From contig CH464491.1 of the NCBI GenBank assembly GCA_000002445.1, positions 2,496,001 through 2,560,000 of the forward strand: 64,000 nt of DNA, written 5' to 3'. Position numbers and translations under genes: made by a program. The DNA comes from Trypanosoma brucei. Taxonomy: Eukaryota. The notes beneath the pieces were generated by a model. It had not been told where the DNA came from, ran no database searches, and was given only the letters and a program-made list of their open reading frames with translations. Below are positions 3,022 through 44,974 of this stretch, one piece after another (the first letter of the stretch is position 1; every line of letters begins with the position of its first letter).

Positions 3022-3839
3022 AATTTGAGGAAAGAAGGTGGGGAATAAAGAATGGAGGAAGGAAAGGGGGAGATAGGGACGATGTACGCAAGGTGGAGGT
3101 CGCTGCAGTAGTCACTGCGCTCGCTGTTACGAAGACAGCACGGGCAAGTGATTAACGGTCCAACTAACCGCACCCTTGAAGAGGGAAAACGATGGTAAGG
3201 GTTCCAACTTGTTTTGCTGCACTGCATGTACATATATACAAACTTAGAATTGTGCATGTATCTTGCATTCTTCGTATCTTTTTTGTGTACGTGCGCCTTC
3301 ACGTATCCCTCTCTTTTCCGTCTTCTTCTATCGCTCTGCATGTCCTCTCCTTTATTTTCGACGTGCCACGGGCGCTGTCAACCATTGGAAATGAATTCCA
3401 GCATATTATACGCAAACGCAAACATCCATTTCAGTTTGAATGGGCGGATTTTGGAGGGACGTGATCAGTCTTTTTATGTGTCTCGCAGTTCCGTACCCTT
3501 TCTCTCACACATTGCCGTGTTTTTTTTTGTGATTGCCTAACGTCTTTCAAAAAGGTGGAATTACGACACACGCAAAGGTGTGTCAAGGGTGGATATGAAG
3601 TTGAAGCAAGGGAAAGGAATGAGAATAAATGTAAAAGAGGTAACTGAAGCAGGTGGAGGTGTCTGTAGAAAGGGGGCGCACAACAAGTTGAACATGTGGA
3701 GTATCGTGAAGAATCCCAAAAGAAAACAAGAAAAAAAGAGGAAAACATTTCGCCCTTCTCTTCTTTTTATTTCCCCTCTCCTCCCTTGTTTCTCCTTCAT
3801 TTCAATAGGCTATCATAAAGAATCACTCCAGTTTATTTT

Positions 3840-3925
3840 TCCAGTGTTTCTGCTTCTTTTTCTGGCCCTTCTCTTCTCTTCTCTTCTCTTTTTTGCTTTT
3901 TTTCTTTTTTGTGTGAGCGATTGTT
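3840..3925 (+). promoter_or_regulatory. Long polypyrimidine (CT-rich) tract; candidate trans-splicing/polyadenylation signal in the gene 1 to gene 2 intergenic region
   Basis: A run of 'ttctgcttctttttctggcccttctcttctcttctcttctcttttttgctttttttcttttttgtgtg' on the coding strand of the plus unit. Such tracts guide SL trans-splicing and polyadenylation in trypanosomatids. Confidence 0.4.
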
Positions 3926-4096
3926 GTTATTATTGTTTTCATTACTTTCACTATCATCATCATTATTGACTCGTCCTTATTGGCGGTAAAGGACACCGTG
4001 AGAGAAGAGGGTGAATATTGTTAAAGTTGACGTAATTATGAGCCCTTCAGGAAGGATATTTCCCACCTTGTAGAATTTCATGGGAGTGTACTGTGC

Positions 4097-4114
4097 ATAT
4101 ATATATATATATAT
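4097..4114. repeat. (AT)9 microsatellite
   Basis: Direct reading: 'atatatatatatatatat'. Confidence 0.9.
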
Positions 4115-5453
4115 GGATATGAATAAACATATTTATTACCTACGCAGTCCTGTTAGGCAATGTTTTGATTTGCTGCTGCTGTTGGCATTCCCCCTTCCAA
4201 CTCGATCGTGTGCCCGATTTCATCCCTCTAATTCACTTTCCCTTAAGGCTCATCTCACCTGTGACAGAGTGGGCGGCGCATGAAAATATTTTCCATTAAT
4301 TTTATATGGATGAGTTAAATTCTTTTGTTTCTGCATTTTGATTCTAGTTCGGGTGGGTTGGTGCGGTGCCACTTGTTGAAAGTGGGGTGAAGTATTTTTT
4401 TTTTAGGTTCGTAAACTGCGGCAACGACAGCAGTGACTTCATCATGAAAAGAATCCACTAGTGCGATTGTGACTGCGCGGCCCTTGTGACTTCGGGGCTG
4501 GCGGCACATAATTATCTCTACAGTTGTTTCATCGCATTGGTTTCCTTTTTTTTTCCTGGTTGCCATGGTGTTGGTGGTTCCCCGCACACACTTACCTTTT
4601 CGTTCGTTTTCACTTACTTCCTGCCATCGTGATATCGGTACTACATGAAAGAGGAGAGAGGAAATTTGGGGGGAAACTATGCGATTCTATTTTTGTGAAG
4701 AGCTGGCATTCTTCTTTTATATCGTCCCCTGTTCTGCATGCAGCTTTTCGCATATGCATAAGAGTTGAATGGTGCGGCGATGAGTCGAGAAAAGAAGGTT
4801 GGGGAAACAAAATAATCACGTGAAGGTTGGAAGGAAAAGGGAAAGGGCGGTGGAAGAAGAAACCTTAGAAGGAGAGAAGGCGATGGTAAGTGGCTTTCGA
4901 GAAGCGGAAAGCGACCTACCACGGGGGTAGGGAAATATTTTGTCCACTCTCACAGTTTTTTGTCTGCCTTGTGGTTTTTTTTAACTAGTTATTTTTTAAA
5001 AAGTAAATCACTTTTCAAAGTTGATTGCTTTTGCTCCTTCATTTGCATAATTTAGAACGTAAAGCCCCCACGACTGCTTAGAGAGAGTTCCTGTTGGAGC
5101 CACGAGACGGATGGGAAGGACAAGAAGGGTCGAAACCGTTCAGTGAATCGTACATCACACTTTCCATGATTGCATAGCCACGCACTCGTAAATATAAATA
5201 AATATATATATATTTGCGCTTGCATATGCATATGCATAACCCCACTGAAAACACCTACTTGTGTAATTCACACCTCCAATACTTCCTACACCGCTTATAT
5301 TATTTTTTCCAATACTGCACACTTTGTGGCTTCTGTATTTATCACCTACCATTTGACTGTAGTAGTAAAGTACAGCACAGGGAAATAGTAAGGAGCGATA
5401 AGAGGAAAAACAGACGAGAGCACCGGTTTGTTGCAAGGTATAGCATCGATAGT

Positions 5454-5744
5454 ATGGGAGATTCTGAAGCCACTGCGGCTGCTGCTTTAGAGCAATCCAT
5501 GCGAAGTGGCCGGACCGTGGTTTATTATACTCACCCGCAGAAGCTTCCATCCACATCAAGGGGCCTAACCAATATCGTTTCTGGTGATCAGCAGGGCAGT
5601 GGGGCAGACAGTCGTCATTACAAACATGAAGAGGTTGTCGCGGCGGGTGATTTCTCTTTCCTCCCGTTCCCATCGTATTGTGGAAGGACAACCGCCAACA
5701 CGGTTCTCTACAAGCATTTTCTGTCTTTTGACGTCCACACATGA
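5454..5744 (+). CDS. Candidate small ORF (~96 aa) inside the 3 kb intergenic gap; hypothetical
   Basis: An internal ATG at 5454 (MGDSEATAAAALEQSMRSGRTVVYYTHPQKLP...) sits within the longer ORF 5214..5744. It follows a moderately pyrimidine-rich stretch and has non-repetitive composition. No recognisable domain. Confidence 0.2.
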   Translation: MGDSEATAAAALEQSMRSGRTVVYYTHPQKLPSTSRGLTNIVSGDQQGSGADSRHYKHEEVVAAGDFSFLPFPSYCGRTTANTVLYKHFLSFDVHT

Positions 5745-6086
5745 AGTGAATCTCTCAGATGCACGTTAAATCCTTCGCACGCACTTCCGCCGTTTCCACC
5801 TCACCAAATGACATCCCCCTTTGAGTTTGTCTTTCTGCTGTGTGCGCCCTTTTTTTTTTGTTGTCGCGGCAGCGGACACCTCCGAATGGTGGAAGATCCT
5901 CGGTTCCCGTGATGGTTACTAAACACCTTTCTTGCTCTCACCCTCCATTATTTGTCTTTAACTCTTTAGTATTTAGTGAAACTGCTGCAATTATTGTAAA
6001 TTACTGTCCCCCCCCCTTCGCTCACAACTGTTTGCTCGCTGAAATCGCTGCTGTCACTGCTACCCGGTTCGCACCGATAAAAGGGA

Positions 6087-18731: not shown

Positions 18732-19132
18732 TAATATCAGAGTACGCGGAGGGTGAGAAACGGCATATATGTGGATCAACACCTCGTTTGAGCGCTATTA
18801 AACGGGTATCGGGGGGGGGGGACCTGTGGGGAAACAAAAGAGGAAGTCGCTTTATTTTCTCACAATCAAACCCAAACAATTTGGTAGTACCAATGGAAAG
18901 GGAGGAGGAGCGAGTGAACGCAAGTAGTGAAGTAGAAGGGATGAACCCAACCAACAAGTCAAATGTTATCTTCCACTGTTACCCCTCATCTCTCTAGTAA
19001 GTGACGCTCCGACGTGGCTGGGGTGAAGACAGAAGTTCTGCTCCGTACCGGCTGAAGTGCGTAGGAAAGGCAAAACTAACAAGCATTTCTCAAGCGGCCC
19101 GCAATAGAAACATCGCTGAAAAGAAAGGGGGA

Positions 19133-21431: not shown

Positions 21432-23294
21432 ATGGAGAATGTGGTTATGGAAGCGGGGGAGGGAGGTTCTAAGTCGAATGCCCCGCAGAATGATGATGCA
21501 AGTGTCATGAATGCCTTGTACGAGCCGCCCCCTCCATTAGCTTCTGACGGTGTGGATGATGCCTTCATTGGCATGGCGTTAGAGGAATGTAGTTTACGGG
21601 ATGTTTATTCGTACAGCTGCCACAGATTTGGGGTCCGACCCAACGAAAACATCCTGCGGCAACTCCCTCCTGTTGCTGGTGATGAATGGGTTAGAAAAAT
21701 AAAGGTACTCGACTTTTCCGCGGTGTACCTTGGTGGTAAAGGGTGCCTTTCGCTCGTACCAATAATTGAACGTTGCACGGAGGCAACACATTTGATGATG
21801 CCCAACGTTGGCTTAACACACGAAGCGGCCGCGCCTCTTTTTGAAGTCATGCGGTACCACCCCAGTGTGTCGTGGATGGACGTATCGAAAAATCGCCTGA
21901 ACGATGATGTGGGTCGCTGGATTCTCAACGCCGTGATCGAAAACCCGAGGATAAGGTTCGTTCTTCTCCGAGATGCGGGTATTAGTCCACCGCTTCTGCA
22001 AAAAATCGAAAACCGTTTGCACGAACGAATGTATGGAACGGTGGAGGCTATAACTCCATCCATTCGCGTAACTTACGCCGAAGGATTTTCTCAACTGTTT
22101 GAATCCTCCCTTGGAACTGGTGCGAATGACACCGCAAGGGTTCCGGTGCATTACGTTCCCCCATCCGTGGCTGCAGGTCTTGTGGAATTACGACACCAAC
22201 TGTATCGCAATGCCGAATCCATGCGGTGCGTTTACAACTGTTTTACCCACAACCTCACACCGGAGTCGGGAGGGTGCGCAAGCGACGCAGGGACAGACGC
22301 AGAAGAATTACCGGAAACAAACAGTGAGGCCGGATTCGGCGCCCCTCACCCTGATCGCTGCTCGTGGCGGTCGTTTTTCTGTGGGCTACGCCTGCTTGGT
22401 GTCCGCGCCGTCTGCAAGTCCCTTGAAGATAGCGTGGCCTTCGCCAACTTATGCGGCATATGTAATGTTGAGACCGTACTTTTTGGAAAACTTATCCAGC
22501 TTTTGAGGCCGCATGTGGCGATTAAAGATGAGATGACGCCGGAATCACCGCCTGTGCGCGGGAACACTATTCCAAATCAGTTTGCCGACGTCTCGCCTCC
22601 GTTGGATGTGCAGCAGGGGGCATCGATGGATGCAGAAGAGATTCCATCAAGGGATCTAAGCGGCAACATGCGCGCAGCTACGCCTGAAATGGGGAAACCA
22701 CAAGCAGATACACCGTCTGTTCCTACCCAAGAGGCTGCCCGTATGGCCTCCGAAGCGAGATGCTCGCCACTCACCCTGAGGCCGCTGCATTGCACACTTC
22801 ACGAAAAAAGGTCGTCTTTAGGCCCATCCCTTTTGGACACATTCGTGACGACCCCGAGCATTGCTGGAGTGCATGCCAGTGGGCCCTTGGAGGCGCGGCT
22901 TCGGCTGGATCGTACGTTTGATTCACGGAACAAGCAGACTGTTGTGGACCAACTGTATGATGAACGTGTCACTCTTAGCGAAGTCTTCAAAAAAACAGGT
23001 GGCGAAGACCCTGATGCAAGTGCCCCATCTTACCTAGTGGATATAGATGAGGTGATTAAGCACGCCGTCTCTCGCGTAGGTGAGTCGAATCGGGAAATTG
23101 TGAAATCTTTGGTGGAGCCATGGGCTGTTGGCGTTGAGGATCGAGTGCTCGTGAATACTGAAGGTTGGTTAAGCTCCATGTACGTTCCCCAATTAGAGGC
23201 GTCAACGCTAATGCCGTTCTCGTTTTCTGAAGAAAAGCTTATCTGGGCCGGTGTCACGGTGGAGGAATTACGAGAGTCAGTTGACTTATGGTGA
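21432..23294 (+). CDS. Leucine-rich-repeat (ribonuclease-inhibitor-type) protein, hypothetical
   Basis: The N-terminal third has LRR_RI-like periodicity: 'IKVLDFSAVYLGGKGCLSLV...THLMMPNVGLTHEAAAPLFEVM...WMDVSKNRLNDDVGRWILNAV...FVLLRDAGISPPLL'. The remainder is disordered and S/P/A-rich. It is the last gene of the plus-strand unit. Confidence 0.6.
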   Translation: MENVVMEAGEGGSKSNAPQNDDASVMNALYEPPPPLASDGVDDAFIGMALEECSLRDVYSYSCHRFGVRPNENILRQLPPVAGDEWVRKIKVLDFSAVYLGGKGCLSLVPIIERCTEATHLMMPNVGLTHEAAAPLFEVMRYHPSVSWMDVSKNRLNDDVGRWILNAVIENPRIRFVLLRDAGISPPLLQKIENRLHERMYGTVEAITPSIRVTYAEGFSQLFESSLGTGANDTARVPVHYVPPSVAAGLVELRHQLYRNAESMRCVYNCFTHNLTPESGGCASDAGTDAEELPETNSEAGFGAPHPDRCSWRSFFCGLRLLGVRAVCKSLEDSVAFANLCGICNVETVLFGKLIQLLRPHVAIKDEMTPESPPVRGNTIPNQFADVSPPLDVQQGASMDAEEIPSRDLSGNMRAATPEMGKPQADTPSVPTQEAARMASEARCSPLTLRPLHCTLHEKRSSLGPSLLDTFVTTPSIAGVHASGPLEARLRLDRTFDSRNKQTVVDQLYDERVTLSEVFKKTGGEDPDASAPSYLVDIDEVIKHAVSRVGESNREIVKSLVEPWAVGVEDRVLVNTEGWLSSMYVPQLEASTLMPFSFSEEKLIWAGVTVEELRESVDLW

Positions 23295-24293
23295 GGTTTA
23301 CTCTCTTTTGTTATTCACTAGAAGGATATGTGTAGTATATATTTCCCTATGTGAGTCGCTTATTTGCATACCGGTGAAGCGGTTCCTTATGGTGTCAGCG
23401 CCGATGCAGCAACACACGCCAAGACGACACCGCTCTGGTCGCTGGTGCTTTTTTTTTTTTTACTTCTATTTTTCTTTGCCCTCTGCGGCTACCAAAGGAG
23501 CCATCACAATTAGCAAAGGTAGAACTTAGTTGGCCGTACGGCGGGAAAGGTTGTGTGGTAGAATTGGTGTTGAATGTCCGGTGTTTTTCCAATATGTACG
23601 ATGCCGCGCAGAGGCGCAGTGAACCAGCAAAACTGTGGGGGACAAAAAGGAATATACTGATCTGCAAAAGGTCTCGGCTGACGTTTTACCACTTTTTGTG
23701 TACGGATGCGCCGAGACCGAGGTTGCAGTAAAACGTGGCACATAGGGAAAACGACAAAGAGCAATGCGAGCAGCCCCAATTGCAGGTCGCAGGCGCTCTA
23801 AGAAATAAAAGGAAGAGAATAGTGAGCAAGGCAATTCGGAAGCGTGGACCGGCGGGAAGTGCTCCGCGAGGAAAAAAAAATAAAGGCACGACTCAACAAA
23901 TCCACCTAAAAGTGCGGAGGAGAGCAGGATGGAATACATCAACTGCAACATTTATGGAACACAACACCAAGTCCAATTGCTTCCTGAAACAATTTTTTGG
24001 CGCTTGTGTAGAAAAGTGGAGCTGGAGCGGTGGAAACTCGCATGTGACTACATACTGCGATAAGTCATTAGTGAAAGGGAATTTGGGGTGGAGAGTGCAT
24101 ATGGGCAAAAATAGGTTTCCACAACAATTAAACACAAGATTGTTGATTGTTAGCAGTCGTCGCACTACCCGCTTGTGTGCAACAACTTGGCTGTGATATG
24201 GAAATGCTGTGAGCCGACGAGGTCGGGGGAGCGGATGCCAGTTTGGGGGGGCGAATCCCTTTCTTGATTTCCTCTGCCTGGCGCAAGAATGCA

Positions 24294-24313
24294 CCCCCCC
24301 CCCAAAAAAAAAA
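24294..24313. repeat. C10 immediately followed by A10 homopolymer tract
   Basis: Direct reading: 'ccccccccccaaaaaaaaaa'. Confidence 0.9.
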
Positions 24314-24459
24314 GAAAACAGCTGGGGAAGCCGAGAAACACCACTGCCCAGGAGAGTATCAACGAGAAAGACAATCTCGCAAGGTTTAAATCCGACTAAT
24401 AACATTGTTGACAGCAACCCCTTTCTGATGTTCAGCAATTGTAATGTGTCTCTCGGCCC

Positions 24460-24474
24460 GGGGGGGGGGGGGGG
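24460..24474. repeat. G15 homopolymer
   Basis: Direct reading: 'ggggggggggggggg' after 'ctcggccc'. Confidence 0.9.
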
Positions 24475-26008
24475 AATCCTCTCCGGCACAATTGCACCAT
24501 GCCTTTTCCAACTCGAGCTCACGCTTCATCGGTAATATGGGAATGGGAAGAGGGTAGTTTGTCAGTAACCTTTCGTGCGACTTTGCTAGCATGTACTCCA
24601 CTTTCCCCTCCACACGTGTGGATATTTTCCCCCAGTTTGAGAACCCTTTCAACGGGCTTTTCCCCTAAGTCCCGGGCGTTACACCCCCACTCCCATGATG
24701 AGCCGTTTTGAGACTTCGCCACGAGACCGCCGGTATAACTCTGCGGTGAGGAGTTCATTATTTTCTTTTGTCCTGCGTCGCCGACGCAACCTCCACGATA
24801 AGAAGAAACCCCCGCTTTCCGCGAATGGGCCACTCACGTCAGTTGTCCACCCTCGCGCGAGGAACCACTTACCAGACGAAGTGAACTTAACAACCACCCT
24901 CGTACGATCTTGTTTTTGTATAAATATTGCCCCTCTTCCCGCACGCAGCTGCGCCAGCTACAGTCCGCGGTGCTCGGAACAAACCGTTTCTCGCTTTTTC
25001 CCGCATCCCTTTACTTTCCGCGCAAGCGCGATCCGAGGACACAATGCACGACTCCAGCTCCGACGATGCACCCACCATTTCCTAGAAACCCCTCCGACAA
25101 TGAATTCCTCACGAAACGCGTCATCTTAGTTCACGAGTCCAAAAACGAGAGATAAGGACAAAAATAATCTTGCAAAAGAGTGAGATGTTACTCAGGTTTG
25201 CACCAACATAAATTGCAGCCACACAGATGGGAAGGGAAGATAAGGGCGTGCGCACGCACGCATTAGTTGGATTCGAACAAACGAACATCCCGTTGATCAA
25301 GCACAATGCACTGACGAAATGGGCTGGCGAGACCGGGCTACTCATCCGCCCACTGCGAGCCGAAGGCAGTTGTCGATAATAGCAGGCACCATTTCGCACG
25401 TAAATTCATTACACAAACACGCAAGCAGTTCCTTCATTTGTTTTGGGTTCCAAGACAGCGCAACCCCGCCGCATTTTGCCCAATTCCCATACCCGCACGC
25501 ACGCACGTGCCACTCCCCGGGAAAAAGTTGGGTCAAGATAACTTTTGCCGAGCGCCTGACGTGTGAACTCGAATCTCCAACATGGTACCTGGAACACTGC
25601 AGTGAGCCGCTAGCGCCACAGTTATTTTCGTTGGGTACATCCCAACTGCTGTGGGAAACACTGCAACCCCGTCCTGTCCCGCGAACTGTCGCCCTAAACA
25701 TGTAGAACCCGTGGCATTTCCACTCCAATGCCGCACCCAATCGGTGATATCTTTCCCGCATTCCATGCGGATGTCAAGTTCATTCGCAAGAGATGCGCCT
25801 TCAAGCCAGCACGCCAACCCCTAGCCCACCATACGACCAAAGACACGGCATTCGCGTGGCTGCATTCAGTGGCGCGTACTCGCAAAACTGCAATGTGTTC
25901 GTAGATTTGTCAACAAAGTGAAAAAAAAATAATAATAATACACTCAATCCCATCATTTGAGTGAACGTGTGCAGTCACTAATTGCCGGTGCGACATACAA
26001 AACAAACC

Positions 26009-26806
26009 TTATTCAAGTTCGCAAAGGATGCTTCGCTCCCAGCTTCCATCGATCGACAAGTCAACAAGCTCCGTGTTAACAACACTCTCCTGCTGCTGCA
26101 TACTCAAAAGAAAATGATGGAGCAAGCGAGGTGCGATAACGTGGGGAGTCGGCTCTGCCCCGCTCAATCCTCGTAGCCGGAGTTCCTCCACTAAAGACGT
26201 CGCTGCTTCGTTCGGCATCTCGCACATAACGATATCGTTGAAGTAAAGCAGATTATTACTCACATTCAGTCCCGCACCATGCATAGAGACCCAATTCCCC
26301 AGTTGAAGCCCGACGAACCCCATCTTTCGTGGTGCCACATCTCCCCAACTGTCGGACCAAACCCCAACCCTCCCTCGATGGGCGGGGATGTTGTATTCGC
26401 CCGCTACGTTAATCATAGCCTGTTCCAACACGGAACTAAACCACTCAATTGGGGAACGTGGTTTGTCAGAAGCCGTGCATTGCTTCCACAGAACCTGCAC
26501 GTTAACAATGGGGTACATAGTTACCTGCCCTGGTCCATGGAATGTGACGCCCCCTCCCCTCCTCGTCTTGACCACCTCGGCGGCACAACCCGCTTTGATG
26601 CCATTGGAAGTGTCTCGCCTGCCAATCGTGTAAACAGGAGACGAATGTTCCACAAGCAAAACAACGTTGGGGATGAGGCGAGCAGATTTGTCTCCACGAA
26701 TGTAGCGCATCTGCCTATCGATTTTCTTTCGAAAAATTGCCTCTTGCAGCCGCAGAACATCGTGGTAACGACGGCTTCCAAGGTTATACGCCCGCATTCC
26801 ATTCAT
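26009..26806 (-). CDS. LIPB: Lipoyl(octanoyl) transferase LipB (octanoyl-ACP:protein N-octanoyltransferase)
   Basis: 'VVLLVEHSSPVYTIGRR...RRGGGVTFHGPGQVTMYPI' matches the LipB 'RGGxxTxHGPGQ' core. Size ~265 aa. Confidence 0.85.
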   Translation of the reverse strand: MNGMRAYNLGSRRYHDVLRLQEAIFRKKIDRQMRYIRGDKSARLIPNVVLLVEHSSPVYTIGRRDTSNGIKAGCAAEVVKTRRGGGVTFHGPGQVTMYPIVNVQVLWKQCTASDKPRSPIEWFSSVLEQAMINVAGEYNIPAHRGRVGVWSDSWGDVAPRKMGFVGLQLGNWVSMHGAGLNVSNNLLYFNDIVMCEMPNEAATSLVEELRLRGLSGAEPTPHVIAPRLLHHFLLSMQQQESVVNTELVDLSIDGSWERSILCELE

Positions 26807-27142
26807 AAGAGGGGGGGACTACATTATTCAAAAAATAAAACATGAAAGTGCGAATGAAAGAGAGAAATGAAGCGCAAGAATCAAAGGTTGGTAATGCAGC
26901 ACACCCCTCAACCCCGGAATGTAAGGAGAATTTTAGCGGTTGTTGGTGTCTTCTTCAATTTACATCGTAATATATGCACATCTATCCTCGTTTTTAGAGA
27001 ACCAAAGGCCACGCCATAATCACCCTCCTTATGTGTTTCTATCATCTTCCTCCTTCATAATTCTCTCTAGAACATAGACAAGTTCCGACATCCAAGGCTG
27101 ACGCGACGACACTCAACATCTAATTGATCATTACCACTTGCC

Positions 27143-29824
27143 TCAATCCCTGCTTCCTTCACTGCCTCGCCCACTGATATCCTCAGTTCCTGACCTTTTC
27201 ATCGCTTCACTGGCTTGGTCACTGCCAATCTCCTCAGCATCTACTTTTGCTGCTTCACTGGTTTGCTTACTCTCCGTGTCCTCGGTGTCTGGATCTTTTG
27301 CTGCTTCGCTTGTTCTCTCACTCGCACCTTCTGTACCAGACCTTTTCATCGCTTCACTGGCTTGGTCACTGCCAATCTCCTCAGCATCTACTTTTGCTGC
27401 TTCACTGGTTTGTTTACTCTCCGTGTCATCGTTGTCTGGATCTTTTGCTGCTTCGCTCGTTTTCTCATTCGCATCCTCTGTATCAGATGGCTTCCGCGCT
27501 TCACTTGTCCATTCACTGTCAATCTCCTCAGTGTCCGCCTCTTTTGCTGTTTCGCTTATCTGTTTACTGCCAATCTCCTCAGTCTCCGCCTCTTTTGCCG
27601 CACCACTCGCCTCGTTGCCTTCAATATCCCCGGTATCTGGATCTTTTGCTGCTTCACTGGCTTGTTTACTGCCAATCTCCTCAGCATCTTCTTCTTTTGC
27701 TGCTTCGCTCGTTTTCTCATTCGCATCCTCCGTATCAGATGGTTTCCCCGCCTCACATGACTGCTCGTCCCCAAACTGTTCATCGGCATATTCTTCATTG
27801 GCAACCTCCTGTGCGGCGCCTTCCTCATCCGCATTGGCACCTCCATCGGCAACAGCGTCCTCAGCAGCGACAGTGTCTTGCGCAATAGGAGGTTCTGTGA
27901 CTTGCCCCTCCTCAACCTCAACGTCACCTTCTCCACCAGCCCCATTCTCAACTGCAGAACGGGAGTGTTGGCTTGTGGAACCCTCGTGCAAACGCGAGGC
28001 GCTACCACCGGGGGCGCCCTCAGCGTGTTCACCCTTTGGAGCCTCAACACCACTGGTACTTCTCATACGCCCAACTGAAGAGGCGGAAGGAGGTGCCCCT
28101 GAGCCACCAAAGTTGTTTTGAGTTGCAACGGATGGCAGGGACAGCTCATGTCCCAGTCCGAGGGAACGTTCGTAGAGGGCAATTATGTCGGCTGAGGCGG
28201 ACAGTTTATCTTCATCTTCGCAGATTCGTTTAGCGTATGGTTCGAGTACTTGCCTGAATTGTTCATCCCCAACATTCTCAACAAACTCCAGCACAAGATG
28301 ATTATCTGACGCCTCTTTCACGTTGAATTTCGTGAACCACGGGGTTAAAACAGTGAACACTCCATTTTCGCCCGTTTCTTCAAGTTGGATCACGTTGGGA
28401 ATCCCACAAATCTCCACCTTAAAGGCAGCCTCCGTTTCTCCACTCGAAGAGAGTCGGCTGAGAGGCGGTAAAACAACTTGGCCTCCTTCCTTGGCGTTCT
28501 CGATCTGGTTCACTTGGCCGGCCTCATCACAACAATAATAAAACGGTTTAGCGTCAGTCACTTCTGACGTGCAGTGGCAGATGACTGTATATGCGAGTGT
28601 GGGGTAGTTTTTGAGTAGCGTACCCCCTGCCAACTCATCCGCCAATTCCTGCCGCACTCCAGTAAGTTCCTCAAGTTTGTCACCGTTGCATGATATCAGG
28701 AGTTGAGCCAGTTTAGCGTAAGCAATGCTTCCAGACGGATATTTCTCTGCCGCAGCGTGACACATAATGTGAATATTTTCCGCAGCGACGTTGCAACCGC
28801 TCAGATAAGCTTCCACAGTGGGTAAATCGGCGACAAGAGCCAGAGCGTCCTCCGCATCCTTCTCCGCCTCCTCACATGACATGAGAACGAACCGGCTGTT
28901 ACCCGAGCCATCCGGCTGTATTGCCAAGACTCGATGCCATATCTCCGGTTTCCATTCTGTACGGGCATCGCAGTGGGAACTGAGCACATTGACGAAGCTC
29001 CCAGTTAGTGCGGTGTCGTCTGCGGGCTGGTCCCCAGACGCCTTGCGTTTGCCGCTATCAGCGGGTGTTTCTTCGCTCTTGCTCAAGAAAGGGAAGACGT
29101 TGATAAAAGCCGTCTCTATCGCCTGACCGGCAGTCCACTTGTCGAGTGCACTGACGCTTACTTTATCACCATCAACACCGATAACCTCCGCAAGAGTACT
29201 CTCCTCTTTAGCAGAGAGAGGCCTGGCCGTCCCGACGTGCTCAAGTATGGCACGCATAAAGGACTCCCAGAAGACTTCAGACTCCCCTTCACCAAAGTAA
29301 CGCCCCCAAAAGTCAAGCAATGGCTTGCTTTCCGTGCACTCCTTGGCGGGTTTTTGGGAGCGGCACAGCTCAATAACGTAATTGATTATCTTGGGTGTGT
29401 TAATGCCCTCTATAGAGGTACGTTTCCTGCCTTCTTTAAAAAATACAAAGTAAGACTTCGATTTTCCGCGCCGGCTCTCAAGGATATCCTTCCAGAACGG
29501 TGCCAAGGATTCTCGAAACTTTACCTTGTCATCTGTTTTCATGTGCTGATGGTGCTCCTCTGTCTGGTCAATGCTCTCGAGAATGGAGTTGCACTCCACG
29601 GAGAGAAAACGAAGATACGCCTGATCAGAAGCGTCCATTTGCAAGCGCCTAAAGGTCTCAGACAGCGCCTTGCTAAGTCCCCACTCGGAACTGTACACAT
29701 CTAGTACCGCCACCCCATGTTGCTCATGTATAAGCCGAAGCTCCTGCTCCAGTTTCACGGCATTTGTGATGTCCTGTACAATTTCTGTGCGGTTTTGCTG
29801 TTGCATTACCACGCAGTAAAACAA
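27143..29824 (-). CDS. Acidic tandem-repeat protein (candidate repetitive antigen) with a non-repetitive, possibly thioredoxin-fold-like, N-terminal region
   Basis: The C-terminal ~250 aa is built from ~16-17-aa units 'SEAAKxxDTEEIGSKQT'. These are organised into two near-identical 49-aa higher-order copies 'EAAKDPDTEDTESKQTSEAAKVDAEEIGSDQASEAMKRSGTE...'. The N-terminal part is unique: 'VLDVYSSEWGLSKAL' is weakly thioredoxin-like and lacks CxxC. Confidence 0.8.
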   Translation of the reverse strand: MFYCVVMQQQNRTEIVQDITNAVKLEQELRLIHEQHGVAVLDVYSSEWGLSKALSETFRRLQMDASDQAYLRFLSVECNSILESIDQTEEHHQHMKTDDKVKFRESLAPFWKDILESRRGKSKSYFVFFKEGRKRTSIEGINTPKIINYVIELCRSQKPAKECTESKPLLDFWGRYFGEGESEVFWESFMRAILEHVGTARPLSAKEESTLAEVIGVDGDKVSVSALDKWTAGQAIETAFINVFPFLSKSEETPADSGKRKASGDQPADDTALTGSFVNVLSSHCDARTEWKPEIWHRVLAIQPDGSGNSRFVLMSCEEAEKDAEDALALVADLPTVEAYLSGCNVAAENIHIMCHAAAEKYPSGSIAYAKLAQLLISCNGDKLEELTGVRQELADELAGGTLLKNYPTLAYTVICHCTSEVTDAKPFYYCCDEAGQVNQIENAKEGGQVVLPPLSRLSSSGETEAAFKVEICGIPNVIQLEETGENGVFTVLTPWFTKFNVKEASDNHLVLEFVENVGDEQFRQVLEPYAKRICEDEDKLSASADIIALYERSLGLGHELSLPSVATQNNFGGSGAPPSASSVGRMRSTSGVEAPKGEHAEGAPGGSASRLHEGSTSQHSRSAVENGAGGEGDVEVEEGQVTEPPIAQDTVAAEDAVADGGANADEEGAAQEVANEEYADEQFGDEQSCEAGKPSDTEDANEKTSEAAKEEDAEEIGSKQASEAAKDPDTGDIEGNEASGAAKEAETEEIGSKQISETAKEADTEEIDSEWTSEARKPSDTEDANEKTSEAAKDPDNDDTESKQTSEAAKVDAEEIGSDQASEAMKRSGTEGASERTSEAAKDPDTEDTESKQTSEAAKVDAEEIGSDQASEAMKRSGTEDISGRGSEGSRD
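27150..27780. repeat. Coding tandem repeat: ~48-51-bp units with two near-identical 147-bp higher-order copies
   Basis: The 74-nt string 'gaccttttcatcgcttcactggcttggtcactgccaatctcctcagcatctacttttgctgcttcactggtttg' occurs at 27192 and 27339, an exact 147-bp offset. Related ~50-bp subunits ('tgccaatctcctcag...cttttgctgcttc...') recur about 12 times. Confidence 0.9.
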
Positions 29825-42980: not shown

Positions 42981-43655
42981 TCGGGTCGCTTGTCCTGCTG
43001 ATTGCCTTACTTGACGTCAAGAACGGAATCAAAACAACCCAGTCTCCCATGGGACAGAAACTTCAAGCACAATTAAGGCAATAAGCATCCACCGAACCTA
43101 CAGAAAACAATAAGTTTAGAAACACATCACAATTATTATCGCTTTTCACAGGAGTTTTTTTTTTTCATATACACAGCCGTGTGCCTTTGTCCACCAATCT
43201 GAACAAGCGGCCACCACACCACACCACACACATACATACACATGAGAGGCAATAGGATCATCATCCAGAATATGCCGGTTAGAGTTGCAGCACACACGGG
43301 CAAACTGCTGAACAACACCTTCCCTGCGCCATTACCGCAGTCACCTCGAGCCGATGACGGGAGTTCACATCCCCACGAAGAAAAACCTCACACTCCTCAC
43401 TGTCATGCATTCCCCCTTTCACGACGGAGAGATACATACAAGAAACGGATTCTAAAAAGCTCGCAACCCGACTGCGCGAGGGGCACTTCCGTAAAAAGAA
43501 AAAAGATACAAAATAGATAGCACAATCCCACGTGGCAATACCGCAGCCAAAAGTCCTCCTGATGGGATTAAAAGTTATCATGTGTCTCTGTTCAAAGGGA
43601 GTTTGGGACGGCCAACACCTTCCCCCATTCCCCGCGAGCGCCAACCCCAAAGAAA

Positions 43656-44069
43656 CTACGATGCCATGTCTTTGTTGTCCTCTTCATCCACACGACTCTC
43701 CAGGCGTTTAACGAGTGCCGCGAAGGCGCCCTCCATATCGAAGCTGTCTATCTCTGGTCTTTTGCGGGCTGTCTTGGGAGTCAGTGTTCCACATGTTAAA
43801 AGATGACTCTCCGTAGTGGAAAAGTAACTCTTCTGTGGAGATCCGCCACTTGAAATAGTCAACATAAGCTCCGTATGGTCCTGTTGAGGTGGCACCGGCA
43901 GCGTCGCAACACGCTCCTTTGGGGGAACGGTGTGTGGCGTTACCCGCGGCATACCAAGGGAAATAAGGTGATTGATGTGGTCCCGGGTCTCAAAATATTC
44001 GAGAGGGATACCAGCCGCGGCTGCACATCCTTGACTAAGTGGCATTGTGGATTTATTTGCGGAGACCAT
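43656..44069 (-). CDS. Hypothetical protein (137 aa)
   Basis: On the coding strand of the unit, with unremarkable composition. A purine-rich (minus-strand pyrimidine) tract lies upstream at 44240-44300. Confidence 0.4.
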   Translation of the reverse strand: MVSANKSTMPLSQGCAAAAGIPLEYFETRDHINHLISLGMPRVTPHTVPPKERVATLPVPPQQDHTELMLTISSGGSPQKSYFSTTESHLLTCGTLTPKTARKRPEIDSFDMEGAFAALVKRLESRVDEEDNKDMAS

Positions 44070-44179
44070 CTGCCAACTAAATTCTTGCTCCTCGATGTTT
44101 TTAACCGCCTTGTGAGATGCAAAAGGTCACCAAGCAAGGAGTCAATTTACACATATATAAAGAAACACATTCGCGCGCA

Positions 44180-44180
<1 letters not shown>

Positions 44181-44223
<43 letters not shown>
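44181..44223. repeat. (GT)n microsatellite, 18 perfect copies plus flanking 'gtgtttgt'
   Basis: Direct reading: 'gtgtttgtgtgtgtgtgtgtgtgtgtgtgtgtgtgtgtgtgtg'. Confidence 0.9.
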
Positions 44224-44224
<1 letters not shown>

Positions 44225-44974
44225 CGTCGTAAGGTGAGAAAAGAGGGAGCAATGAAAAGGCGGTGGGACGCAAGGCGGGAATAACAAAGAGAGCTGCGGC
44301 GTCGAGTAATCGCAGAGCAAAGACAGGAAGTAGCCCATGCAACAACTGATGTGCAATGAGGGGAACGAATCATAGGGGTCCTTGACGATTTCTAACGTTT
44401 TCCGTTTTTCTTCTCATCTTATAAAACCACTTTACAAACTTTACTTGGTTATCTTTCTCGAAGAAAGGGGCGTCGGTTAGACTCCAAGTGATGCTTTCAC
44501 CTTGGGTCAGCCGCAAGCACATCAGCACGTGCACCCATATGTACATATGTATGTATATCTATATATATGTATACCCCTCTCTTTCCTACCATCTAACTAG
44601 CGCTCTCTTCTTTTCGGAGGGGTCGCCCGTAAATCAGTGCATGCACTCTGACAAGAGGTACGAGATTGTTCCTTTTTTTTTTTCCACCCCACTCCTTCTC
44701 CCCGAGTTCAGAAATTAGGTTCGCTTATGGTCGTATTAAATTTTCTCAGTTGCCAGCATTCACTTGCAGAACATGTTTTGTTTTCCAATTTGCTTAACTT
44801 GCACAGAAATGGTTCCACACACTTTTTCACAGCAACCCTCACACAACCACACACACACACTCACTCACTCATTCATAGACCGTGCAAACGCATACAAGCA
44901 GACAAAACGCAAAAAGGCAAATATATATACACTACAATGCTATTTTCAAAACTAGTCCCTCCAGACAACAATCA

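What the first reader, a model, noticed from the sequence alone, without database searches (positions are those of the whole stretch)
23295..26008. Convergent strand-switch (termination) region with extreme homopolymers and no recognisable tRNA
Gene orientation flips here, plus strand up to 23294 and minus strand from 26009. That identifies a convergent junction between two polycistronic units. In trypanosomatids such junctions are RNA pol II termination zones. They are marked by base J and H3V/H4V, and often host tRNA/snRNA genes or retroelement relics. This one has T13 (23449-23461), A9, C10A10 (24294-24313) and G15 (24460-24474) within 1 kb. No tRNA folds. The only ORFs are low-complexity artefacts. 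The homopolymers could be assembly-fragile sites, nucleosome-excluding elements or termination signals.
Basis: partly seen in the sequence, partly recalled or inferred. Interest (0 to 1): 0.5.

Follow-up and report, generated by a model that had tools for sequence, protein, structure and literature searches.

The report
Ordinary trypanosome convergent strand-switch region
This is the 2.7-kb gene-free gap where two head-on gene arrays of a Trypanosoma brucei chromosome meet and transcription ends; it is a well-catalogued kind of region, hides no RNA or protein gene, and its long single-letter runs are normal, length-variable features of trypanosome spacer DNA.

Summary
Long ORFs run on the + strand up to 23294 and on the - strand from 26009, and T13, A9, C10A10, G15 and a second A9 sit at the stated coordinates. 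The window is Trypanosoma brucei-group DNA, syntenic with T. b. gambiense chromosome 11. The gap is a convergent strand-switch region (cSSR).

ARAGORN and Rfam find no tRNA, snRNA or other RNA family. All eight internal ORFs of at least 100 aa lack coding signal. The one ORF annotated elsewhere is labelled "hypothetical protein, unlikely".

The homopolymers are not special to this gap. Their density is about twice that of other spacers in the window (p about 0.05) and equals that of one ordinary spacer. They follow the window-wide rule of oligo-T on the sense strand. They are conserved in place but vary in length between assemblies.

G15 lies on a 109-bp indel in two assemblies and on an N-gap in a third, so it is a variable or assembly-fragile site. 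It also marks the purine-to-pyrimidine skew switch.

The gap is a synteny break. Other trypanosomatids carry GP63, RHS, VSG or retroelement genes there, but no relic is detectable here. Termination chromatin (H3.V, base J) could not be tested. This is a known kind of feature and of low interest.

The parts
21432..23294 (+). Last gene of the plus-strand polycistronic unit (620-aa conserved hypothetical protein)
   Evidence: Homologues in T. equiperdum, T. congolense, T. cruzi and T. conorhini. Positive codon score.
23295..26008 (.). Convergent strand-switch region: 2,714 bp with no supported gene between the two terminal stop codons
   Evidence: ORF map; skew profile; no RNA family; no coding signal.
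23448..23484 (+). The only long plus-strand polypyrimidine tract in the gap (T13 plus CT-rich tail). The first AG downstream is at 23496-23497. It is a candidate signal for coupled polyadenylation of the 620-aa gene and trans-splicing (inferred).
   Evidence: Sequence. polyY scan and the purine-excess minimum at 23493. The T run is 10-13 long in four assemblies.
23494..24476 (.). Block that is purine-rich on + and so pyrimidine-rich on -. It carries four minus-strand polypyrimidine tracts: 23807-19, 23868-80, 24304-18 and 24460-76.
   Evidence: Cumulative purine excess has its minimum at 23493 and its maximum at 24476. polyY list.
23526..23951 (-). 141-aa ORF annotated in T. b. gambiense as 'hypothetical protein, unlikely'. 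It is not a gene.
   Evidence: The only database relative is that gambiense entry. Nucleotide divergence of 2.35% is the highest of any compartment, with many amino-acid changes, and the frame is broken in L003. Codon score -0.08.
23872..23880 (.). A9 (T9 on the minus strand)
   Evidence: Invariant in four assemblies.
24294..24313 (.). C10A10 (T10G10 on the minus strand); a length-polymorphic microsatellite
   Evidence: It reads C9-10 A10-13 in four assemblies.
24460..24474 (.). G15: the longest homopolymer in the window, G-quadruplex-capable, an indel or assembly-fragile site, and the exact purine-to-pyrimidine switch point
   Evidence: T. b. gambiense and GCA_003543875.1 have G7 + 109 bp of unique sequence + G9-10 here, and T. 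equiperdum OVI has 27 N + G16. Switch point.
24477..25100 (.). Block that is pyrimidine-rich and C-rich on the plus strand
   Evidence: 34-49 purines per 100 bp and GC skew down to -0.31.
25921..25929 (.). A9 followed by (TAA) repeats. On the minus strand this is oligo-T, starting 80 nt past the LipB stop.
   Evidence: Variable in length between assemblies.
26009..26806 (-). Last gene of the minus-strand polycistronic unit: lipoyl(octanoyl) transferase (LipB)
   Evidence: Pfam LplA-B_cat, E=1e-19. Orthologues across trypanosomatids.

Best explanation
Region 23295-26008 is an ordinary convergent strand-switch region of a Trypanosoma brucei-group megabase chromosome, syntenic with T. b. gambiense chr 11 at about 2.55 Mb.

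Shown here:
- Two RNA polymerase II polycistronic units meet head-on.
- The gap holds no protein gene and no tRNA, snRNA or other recognised RNA.

Inferred:
- The gap consists of the 3' UTRs of the two terminal genes plus a short spacer.
- Pol II stops here through chromatin (H3.V, H4.V and base J read by the PJW/PP1 complex), not through a sequence signal.
- The A/T homopolymers are the usual sense-strand oligo-T or polypyrimidine tracts of trypanosome spacers. These direct coupled trans-splicing and polyadenylation and disfavour nucleosomes.
- By tract polarity, the LipB-side unit keeps its processing-type signals down to about 23,800, while the other unit has only T13 at 23,449. Any overlap of the two transcripts is therefore expected between about 23.5 and 24.5 kb.

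G15 and C10A10 are slippage-prone microsatellites at the compositional midpoint. G15 sits on a 109-bp indel and is hard to assemble.

The gap is also an evolutionary synteny break that other trypanosomatids have filled with lineage-specific genes.
For: Gene orientation and skew. Identity as T. brucei group. No tRNA or Rfam family.

Internal ORFs. No Pfam match. Codon log-odds are -0.10 to +0.025 against 0.027-0.291 for all 30 real genes. ORF141 is unconstrained and labelled 'unlikely'. No relic of GP63, RHS, RT or VSG.

Homopolymer polarity. Outside the gap, 15 of 21 runs are oligo-T on the sense strand. Inside it, T13 fits the + unit and A9, A10 and A9 fit the - unit. Tracts are conserved in place but variable in length.

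Literature:
- 72 cSSRs are catalogued in T. brucei and are enriched in H3.V and J (Reynolds 2016, PMC4721609; Schulz 2016, PMC4721952).
- No defined termination sequence is known, the average 3' UTR is 676 bp, and oligo(dA.T) and oligo(dG.C) are depleted from nucleosomes (Maree 2017, PMC5359979).
- Reynolds' table lists a chr 11 cSSR at 2,517,606-2,523,771. It is the only one within about 400 kb of the gambiense position 2,547,850-2,550,679. It has low small-RNA counts (7.3 RPM in wild type, 14.3 in the H3.V knockout, not significant). This mapping is tentative.
Against: No transcript, Pol II, H3.V or base-J data for this locus could be examined, so termination here is inferred from the class and not shown.

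The link to the published cSSR list rests on approximate coordinates in a different subspecies.

The purine-to-pyrimidine polarity around 24,476 is the reverse of what two simply abutting units would give, and the model explains it only loosely.

Homopolymer density is nominally about 2-fold above other spacers (p about 0.05), so a weak local enrichment is not excluded.
Confidence: 0.85

Rival explanations
1. The central C10A10...G15 module is a functional cis element. G15 would form a G-quadruplex that seeds base-J insertion or blocks Pol II. Together with the oligo-A tracts it would keep the midpoint nucleosome-free and so fix where termination occurs.
For: G15 is exactly the minimum length for a three-tetrad G4 and is one of only two canonical G4 motifs in 64 kb. 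It lies at the purine/pyrimidine and GC-skew switch. In Leishmania, de novo J insertion occurs near G4-capable G-rich sequence in cSSR fragments (Genest 2015, PMC4344527). Oligo(dG.C) runs above 7 are strikingly absent from T. brucei nucleosomes.
Against: The G4-capable run is not conserved within the T. brucei group. T. b. gambiense and GCA_003543875.1 have G7 and G9-10 separated by 109 bp and no canonical G4 motif on either strand at loop lengths 1-7. Genest et al. state that G4 potential alone does not suffice for J entry. No termination sequence is known in T. brucei. The C10:G15 hairpin folds no better than shuffled sequence (z = -0.9 and -1.4).
Confidence: 0.1
2. The core of the gap is a DNA replication origin. 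It has poly(dA) and a plus-strand G4 upstream, and pyrimidine-rich sequence downstream, of a centre near 24,480.
For: Origins mapped by short-nascent-strand sequencing (SNS-seq) in T. brucei show A/G, poly(dA) and plus-strand G4 upstream, and T/C downstream, of the centre, with G4 summits 100-200 nt away (Stanojcic 2026, PMC13179062). Here A10 (24304-13) and G15 (24460-74) precede a C/T-rich block at 24477-25100.
Against: The same paper finds that origins are not enriched at termination regions; only 3.7% of origins fall in TSS, TTS or HT regions. There is no T8 run within 0.5 kb downstream. The weaker A4/T4 pattern is present in 78% of control spacers. The G4 is not conserved.
Confidence: 0.06
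3. The G15 tract as written, with the missing 109 bp, is an assembly or sequencing artefact of this assembly and not the true allele.
For: Two independent assemblies carry 109 bp of unique sequence between two shorter G runs at this exact place. A third assembly has an N-gap there. The junction is not a clean recombination between the two G runs: CCCCGGTG7...G9 in the relatives against CCCG15 here.
Against: T. equiperdum OVI independently shows a run of 16 G next to the same right flank AATCC, so a long-G allele exists in at least two assemblies. All other tracts also vary by 1-3 bases, as expected of real slippage.
Confidence: 0.25
4. The gap hides a real gene: ORF141 (23526-23951, -), another small ORF, or an unannotated spliced non-coding RNA starting after the T13 tract.
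For: ORF141 is called as a gene in T. b. gambiense. T13 plus a CT-rich tail followed by AG at 23496-97 looks like a usable trans-splice acceptor.
Against: The gambiense entry is itself labelled 'unlikely'. There is no other homologue among 5.8 billion proteins. ORF141 has the highest divergence with mostly non-synonymous changes, and a frame break in L003. Codon scores are negative. No Pfam match. No Rfam hit. No conservation outside the T. brucei group.
Confidence: 0.05

Closest known systems
T. brucei convergent strand-switch regions, i.e. Pol II transcription termination regions (72 catalogued; H3.V/H4.V and base J enriched; Reynolds 2016, Schulz 2016)
   Same: Two polycistronic units converge. 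The spacer is gene-free and a few kb long, with no defined termination motif. A chr 11 entry in the published list lies at a matching position.
   Different: Nothing in the sequence differs. Chromatin marks and transcript ends were not testable here. If the mapping is right, this one is a low-siRNA cSSR (7 RPM against more than 3,000 RPM at some others).
cSSRs that carry tRNA, snRNA or other Pol III genes (common in Leishmania and in some T. brucei cSSRs; established knowledge)
   Same: Same position class, at the end of two converging units.
   Different: No tRNA or other RNA gene is present here.
Synteny-break 'islands' at strand-switch regions that hold species-specific surface-protein families and retroelements (El-Sayed et al. 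2005, comparative trypanosomatid genomics; established knowledge)
   Same: The same junction holds several lineage-specific contents. T. cruzi has GP63 and RHS/TS-like genes, T. theileri has GP63, T. congolense has VSG/ISG, and T. vivax has an RT/RNase H retroelement. In L. tarentolae the LipB unit simply continues.
   Different: The T. brucei version is empty. No relic of any of these families is detectable by tblastn, tblastx or blastn.
SNS-seq replication origin topology in T. brucei (Stanojcic 2026)
   Same: Poly(dA) and a plus-strand G4 lie upstream, and pyrimidine-rich sequence downstream, of a centre near 24,480.
   Different: Such origins are not enriched at termination regions. There is no T8 downstream. 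The G4 is not conserved.

Membership tests
Trypanosomatid convergent strand-switch region (Pol II termination region) | Two arrays of same-strand protein genes converge, with the terminal stop codons facing each other | tested here: met
   9 genes on + end at 23294 and 21 genes on - start at 26009. The skew reverses at about 24.4 kb.
Trypanosomatid convergent strand-switch region (Pol II termination region) | No Pol II protein-coding gene between the terminal genes | tested here: met
   No Pfam match. Codon scores are non-coding. ORF141 is unconstrained and labelled 'unlikely'.
Trypanosomatid convergent strand-switch region (Pol II termination region) | Enrichment of H3.V/H4.V and base J | not testable with these tools
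   Known for the class. No ChIP or J-IP data are accessible here.
Trypanosomatid convergent strand-switch region (Pol II termination region) | Pol II transcripts of both units end within the gap, with possible siRNAs from overlapping transcription | not testable with these tools
   The only evidence is a tentative match to the Reynolds 2016 S2 entry chr11:2,517,606-2,523,771, which shows low small-RNA levels.
cSSR with Pol III genes (tRNA, snRNA, 5S, 7SL) | At least one tRNA or small-RNA gene inside the gap | tested here: not met
   ARAGORN finds 0. Rfam finds 0 at gathering score, and only sub-threshold noise at E<=10.
Retroelement, RHS or surface-gene relic at a synteny break | Detectable protein- or DNA-level similarity to ingi/L1Tc-type RT, RHS, GP63 or VSG | tested here: not met
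   tblastn with 19 neighbouring proteins from syntenic loci gives its best E of 0.02 on a low-complexity stretch. tblastx and dc-megablast give nothing. A 20-nt motif recalled from memory as the conserved 5' end of ingi/L1Tc-type retroelements has 0 matches.
Trypanosome centromere | AT-rich tandem repeat arrays in a strand-switch region | tested here: not met
   TRF finds only the G15 run inside the gap. There are no dispersed repeats shared with the rest of the window.
SNS-seq replication origin (Stanojcic 2026) | A8 upstream and T8 downstream within 0.5 kb of the centre, with a plus-strand G4 100-200 nt upstream | tested here: inconclusive
   A10 and G15 are present upstream of 24,480. Downstream is pyrimidine-rich but has no T8. 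Nascent-strand data are not available here.

The most novel reading that the evidence does not exclude
The C10A10/G15 module at the exact compositional midpoint would be a strain-variable cis element. A G-quadruplex and a nucleosome-free patch would set the local entry point of base J or the Pol II stop point, or would fire as a replication origin. The 109-bp indel would then switch this property on or off between T. brucei lineages.
Probability: 0.07. Interest if true: 0.45.

Novelty: already known. Interest (0 to 1): 0.12.

Why it matters
It matters little beyond annotation. The result confirms that a tool-free reading correctly recognised a trypanosome termination region and that nothing is hidden in it.

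There are three minor uses:
- It flags position 24,460-24,474 as an indel or assembly-fragile site that should be checked before variant calling or primer design.
- It gives a natural pair of alleles (G15 against G7 + 109 bp + G9-10) with and without G-quadruplex potential at a cSSR midpoint. These could serve as a natural test of whether G4s matter for base-J placement or termination.
- It documents this junction as a recurrent insertion site for lineage-specific gene families across trypanosomes.

Tried and rejected
1. tRNA, snRNA or other RNA: ARAGORN and Rfam at gathering score on the whole window, plus a permissive Rfam scan of 22.8-26.6 kb, gave nothing credible.

2. Coding gene: Pfam on six internal ORFs, exact look-up of six ORFs, a homology search with ORF141, codon log-odds and a constraint test were all negative.

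3. Relic of GP63, RHS, retroelement or VSG: tblastn, tblastx and blastn against the syntenic neighbours in T. cruzi, T. theileri, T. vivax, T. congolense and L. tarentolae gave only noise. A 20-nt motif recalled from memory as the conserved 5' end of ingi/L1Tc-type retroelements gave 0 hits.

4. Conserved non-coding element outside the T. brucei group: none found.

5. Repeats: no meaningful direct, inverted or tandem repeat apart from the homopolymers. The gap shares no repeat with the rest of the window.

6. C10:G15 long-range hairpin: folds no better than shuffles.

7. Finding the source assembly and TriTrypDB gene IDs, so that published ChIP and RNA-seq tables could be used. Exact-protein look-ups returned only T. 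equiperdum OVI, T. b. gambiense and GCA_003543875.1. Literature searches for gene IDs failed. The supplements of Schulz 2016 and Reynolds 2016 do not name the flanking genes. Only an approximate coordinate match was possible.

8. The 109-bp indel segment as a dispersed repeat: it is unique in all sequence held.
Full report
OBSERVATION

The sequence was read directly. A further A9 lies at 25921-25929.

Every long ORF with a homologue or domain lies on the + strand up to 23294 and on the - strand from 26009. Cumulative GC skew climbs across the first unit, peaks at about 24.3-24.6 kb, and falls across the second unit.

ORGANISM AND LOCUS

The last minus-strand gene (26009-26806) is lipoyl(octanoyl) transferase (Pfam LplA-B_cat). 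It is 99% identical to the T. b. gambiense DAL972 protein, with orthologues throughout the trypanosomatids.

Three T. brucei-group assemblies hold the same locus:
- T. equiperdum OVI (L001).
- T. b. gambiense chr 11 (L002). The gap lies at 2,547,850-2,550,679 of FN554974.1.
- GCA_003543875.1 (L003).
The source assembly of the window itself was not found.

IS ANYTHING HIDDEN IN THE GAP?

- ARAGORN finds no tRNA in the whole window.
- Rfam finds nothing at gathering score in 64 kb. A permissive scan of 22.8-26.6 kb gives four matches, all far below gathering score.
- Six internal ORFs of 128-209 aa have no Pfam match, and none is in the protein collection.
- On a codon log-odds score trained on the window's own genes, all 30 real genes are positive (0.027-0.291 bits per codon, leave-one-out). 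The eight internal ORFs of at least 100 aa score -0.10 to +0.025.
- ORF141 (23526-23951, -) is the only one annotated anywhere. Its sole relative among 5.8 billion proteins is the gambiense entry named 'hypothetical protein, unlikely'. It shows the highest nucleotide divergence of any compartment (2.35%, against 0.5-1.1% in the flanking genes), with mostly amino-acid-changing differences. Its frame is broken in L003.
- There are no repeats beyond the homopolymers.

The gap is therefore gene-free as far as sequence analysis can show.

THE HOMOPOLYMERS

Against random sequence they are highly non-random. Against trypanosome spacer DNA they are not.
- 25 of the 27 runs of 8 or more lie in the non-coding 35% of the window.
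- The gap has 2.2 runs/kb against 0.97/kb in the other spacers (Poisson p about 0.05). The ordinary spacer 3022-6086 has 1.96/kb.
- Outside the gap, 15 of 21 runs are oligo-T on the sense strand. This matches the polypyrimidine tracts that drive coupled trans-splicing and polyadenylation (Maree 2017 and references there).

Inside the gap the same rule sorts the tracts. T13 with its CT-rich tail (23448-23484, AG at 23496-97) belongs to the + unit. It is the only plus-strand polypyrimidine tract of 12 or more. The - strand has five such tracts, at 25229-40, 24460-76, 24304-18, 23868-80 and 23807-19.

In four assemblies the tracts are conserved in place but differ in length: T10-13, and C9-10 with A10-13. 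They are real, slippage-prone microsatellites.

Published MNase data show that oligo(dA.T) of 7 or more and oligo(dG.C) above 7 are depleted from T. brucei nucleosomes. The 'nucleosome-excluding' option therefore holds as a generic property. No defined termination sequence is known.

G15

Alignment with all three relatives breaks exactly at this run.
- T. b. gambiense and L003 carry G7, then 109 bp of unique sequence with an AT-rich core, then G9-10.
- T. equiperdum OVI has 27 N followed by G16.
- The 109-bp piece is unique in all the sequence held.

G15 is thus an indel or assembly-fragile site. The OVI run suggests that a long-G allele is real, but this needs PCR.

G15 is one of only two canonical G-quadruplex motifs in the window. 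It sits at the exact maximum of cumulative purine excess (minimum at 23493, maximum at 24476). This could suggest a G4-based role in base-J entry (Genest 2015) or an origin-like topology (Stanojcic 2026). Three results argue against this:
- The G4 motif is absent from gambiense and L003.
- Origins are not enriched at termination regions.
- The C10:G15 hairpin is no better than shuffles.

SYNTENY

The junction is a synteny break.

Downstream of LipB:
- T. cruzi has RHS and trans-sialidase-like genes on the same strand.
- T. theileri has GP63 genes.
- T. vivax has an RT/RNase H retroelement.
- L. tarentolae has housekeeping genes with no strand switch.

Downstream of the 620-aa gene:
- T. congolense has VSG and ISG genes on the same strand.
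- T. cruzi has a convergent GP63 array starting 624 bp after the stop codon.

This fits an older arrangement in which the LipB-side unit ran on through lineage-specific genes and converged right after the 620-aa gene. It also matches the asymmetry of polypyrimidine tracts in T. brucei. That link is an inference. No relic of those genes is detectable here.

MECHANISM (INFERRED FROM THE CLASS)

T. brucei has 72 catalogued cSSRs. They are enriched in H3.V and base J, and some yield siRNAs from overlapping transcription (Reynolds 2016; Schulz 2016).

Reynolds' table lists a chr 11 cSSR at 2,517,606-2,523,771. It is the only one within about 400 kb of the gambiense coordinate. Its small-RNA counts are low and show no significant H3.V effect. 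The match is tentative.

With an average 3' UTR of 676 bp, two UTRs account for about half of the 2.7 kb.

VERDICT

This is a correctly recognised, ordinary and already-catalogued kind of region. The only locus-specific points are the G15 indel or fragile site and the synteny break. Termination chromatin and transcript ends could not be tested with these tools.

Noticed in passing
L002:5326-7021 (= window 27314..25616): The T. b. gambiense assembly carries a second copy of the 893-aa repeat gene, LipB and the first 393 nt of the gap (98.4% identity). The copy ends in a 100-N assembly gap. It is either a real tandem duplication whose junction lies inside the cSSR or an assembly artefact.
   Followed up: partly
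window 27181-27706: There are 147-bp and 48-51-bp tandem repeats inside the 893-aa gene next to LipB, with extreme strand skew in 27001-28000 (GC skew -0.33, AT skew -0.36). The gene length differs between assemblies: 887, 987 and 777 aa.
   Followed up: no
L004, L005, L006, L007, L009, L010 (syntenic loci): The same junction is occupied by different lineage-specific families. These are RHS/TS-like genes and GP63 in T. cruzi, GP63 in T. theileri, an RT/RNase H retroelement in T. vivax, and VSG/ISG in T. congolense. In L. tarentolae (L008) the LipB unit continues without a strand switch.
   Followed up: partly
window 18804-18831: This is the only other canonical G-quadruplex motif in the window (GGGTATCG11ACCTGTGGGG). 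It lies in the spacer between the TPP-enzyme and UbiA genes.
   Followed up: no
window 42981-44974: This is a 2-kb ORF-free gap inside the minus-strand unit. It holds two T11 runs on the + strand (43155, 44673), which is the opposite polarity to the 'oligo-T on the sense strand' rule seen elsewhere. No Rfam hit.
   Followed up: no
window 3022-6086: This is a 3-kb low-GC (0.43), ORF-poor stretch with six homopolymer runs of 8 or more, as dense as the cSSR. It has overlapping ORFs on both strands at 5155-5744.
   Followed up: no
L003 (GCA_003543875.1), region aligned to window 21432-23294: There is a 1-bp indel inside the conserved 620-aa coding sequence. This suggests residual single-base errors in that assembly, so its 1-bp differences, including the frame break in ORF141, should be read with care.
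   Followed up: no
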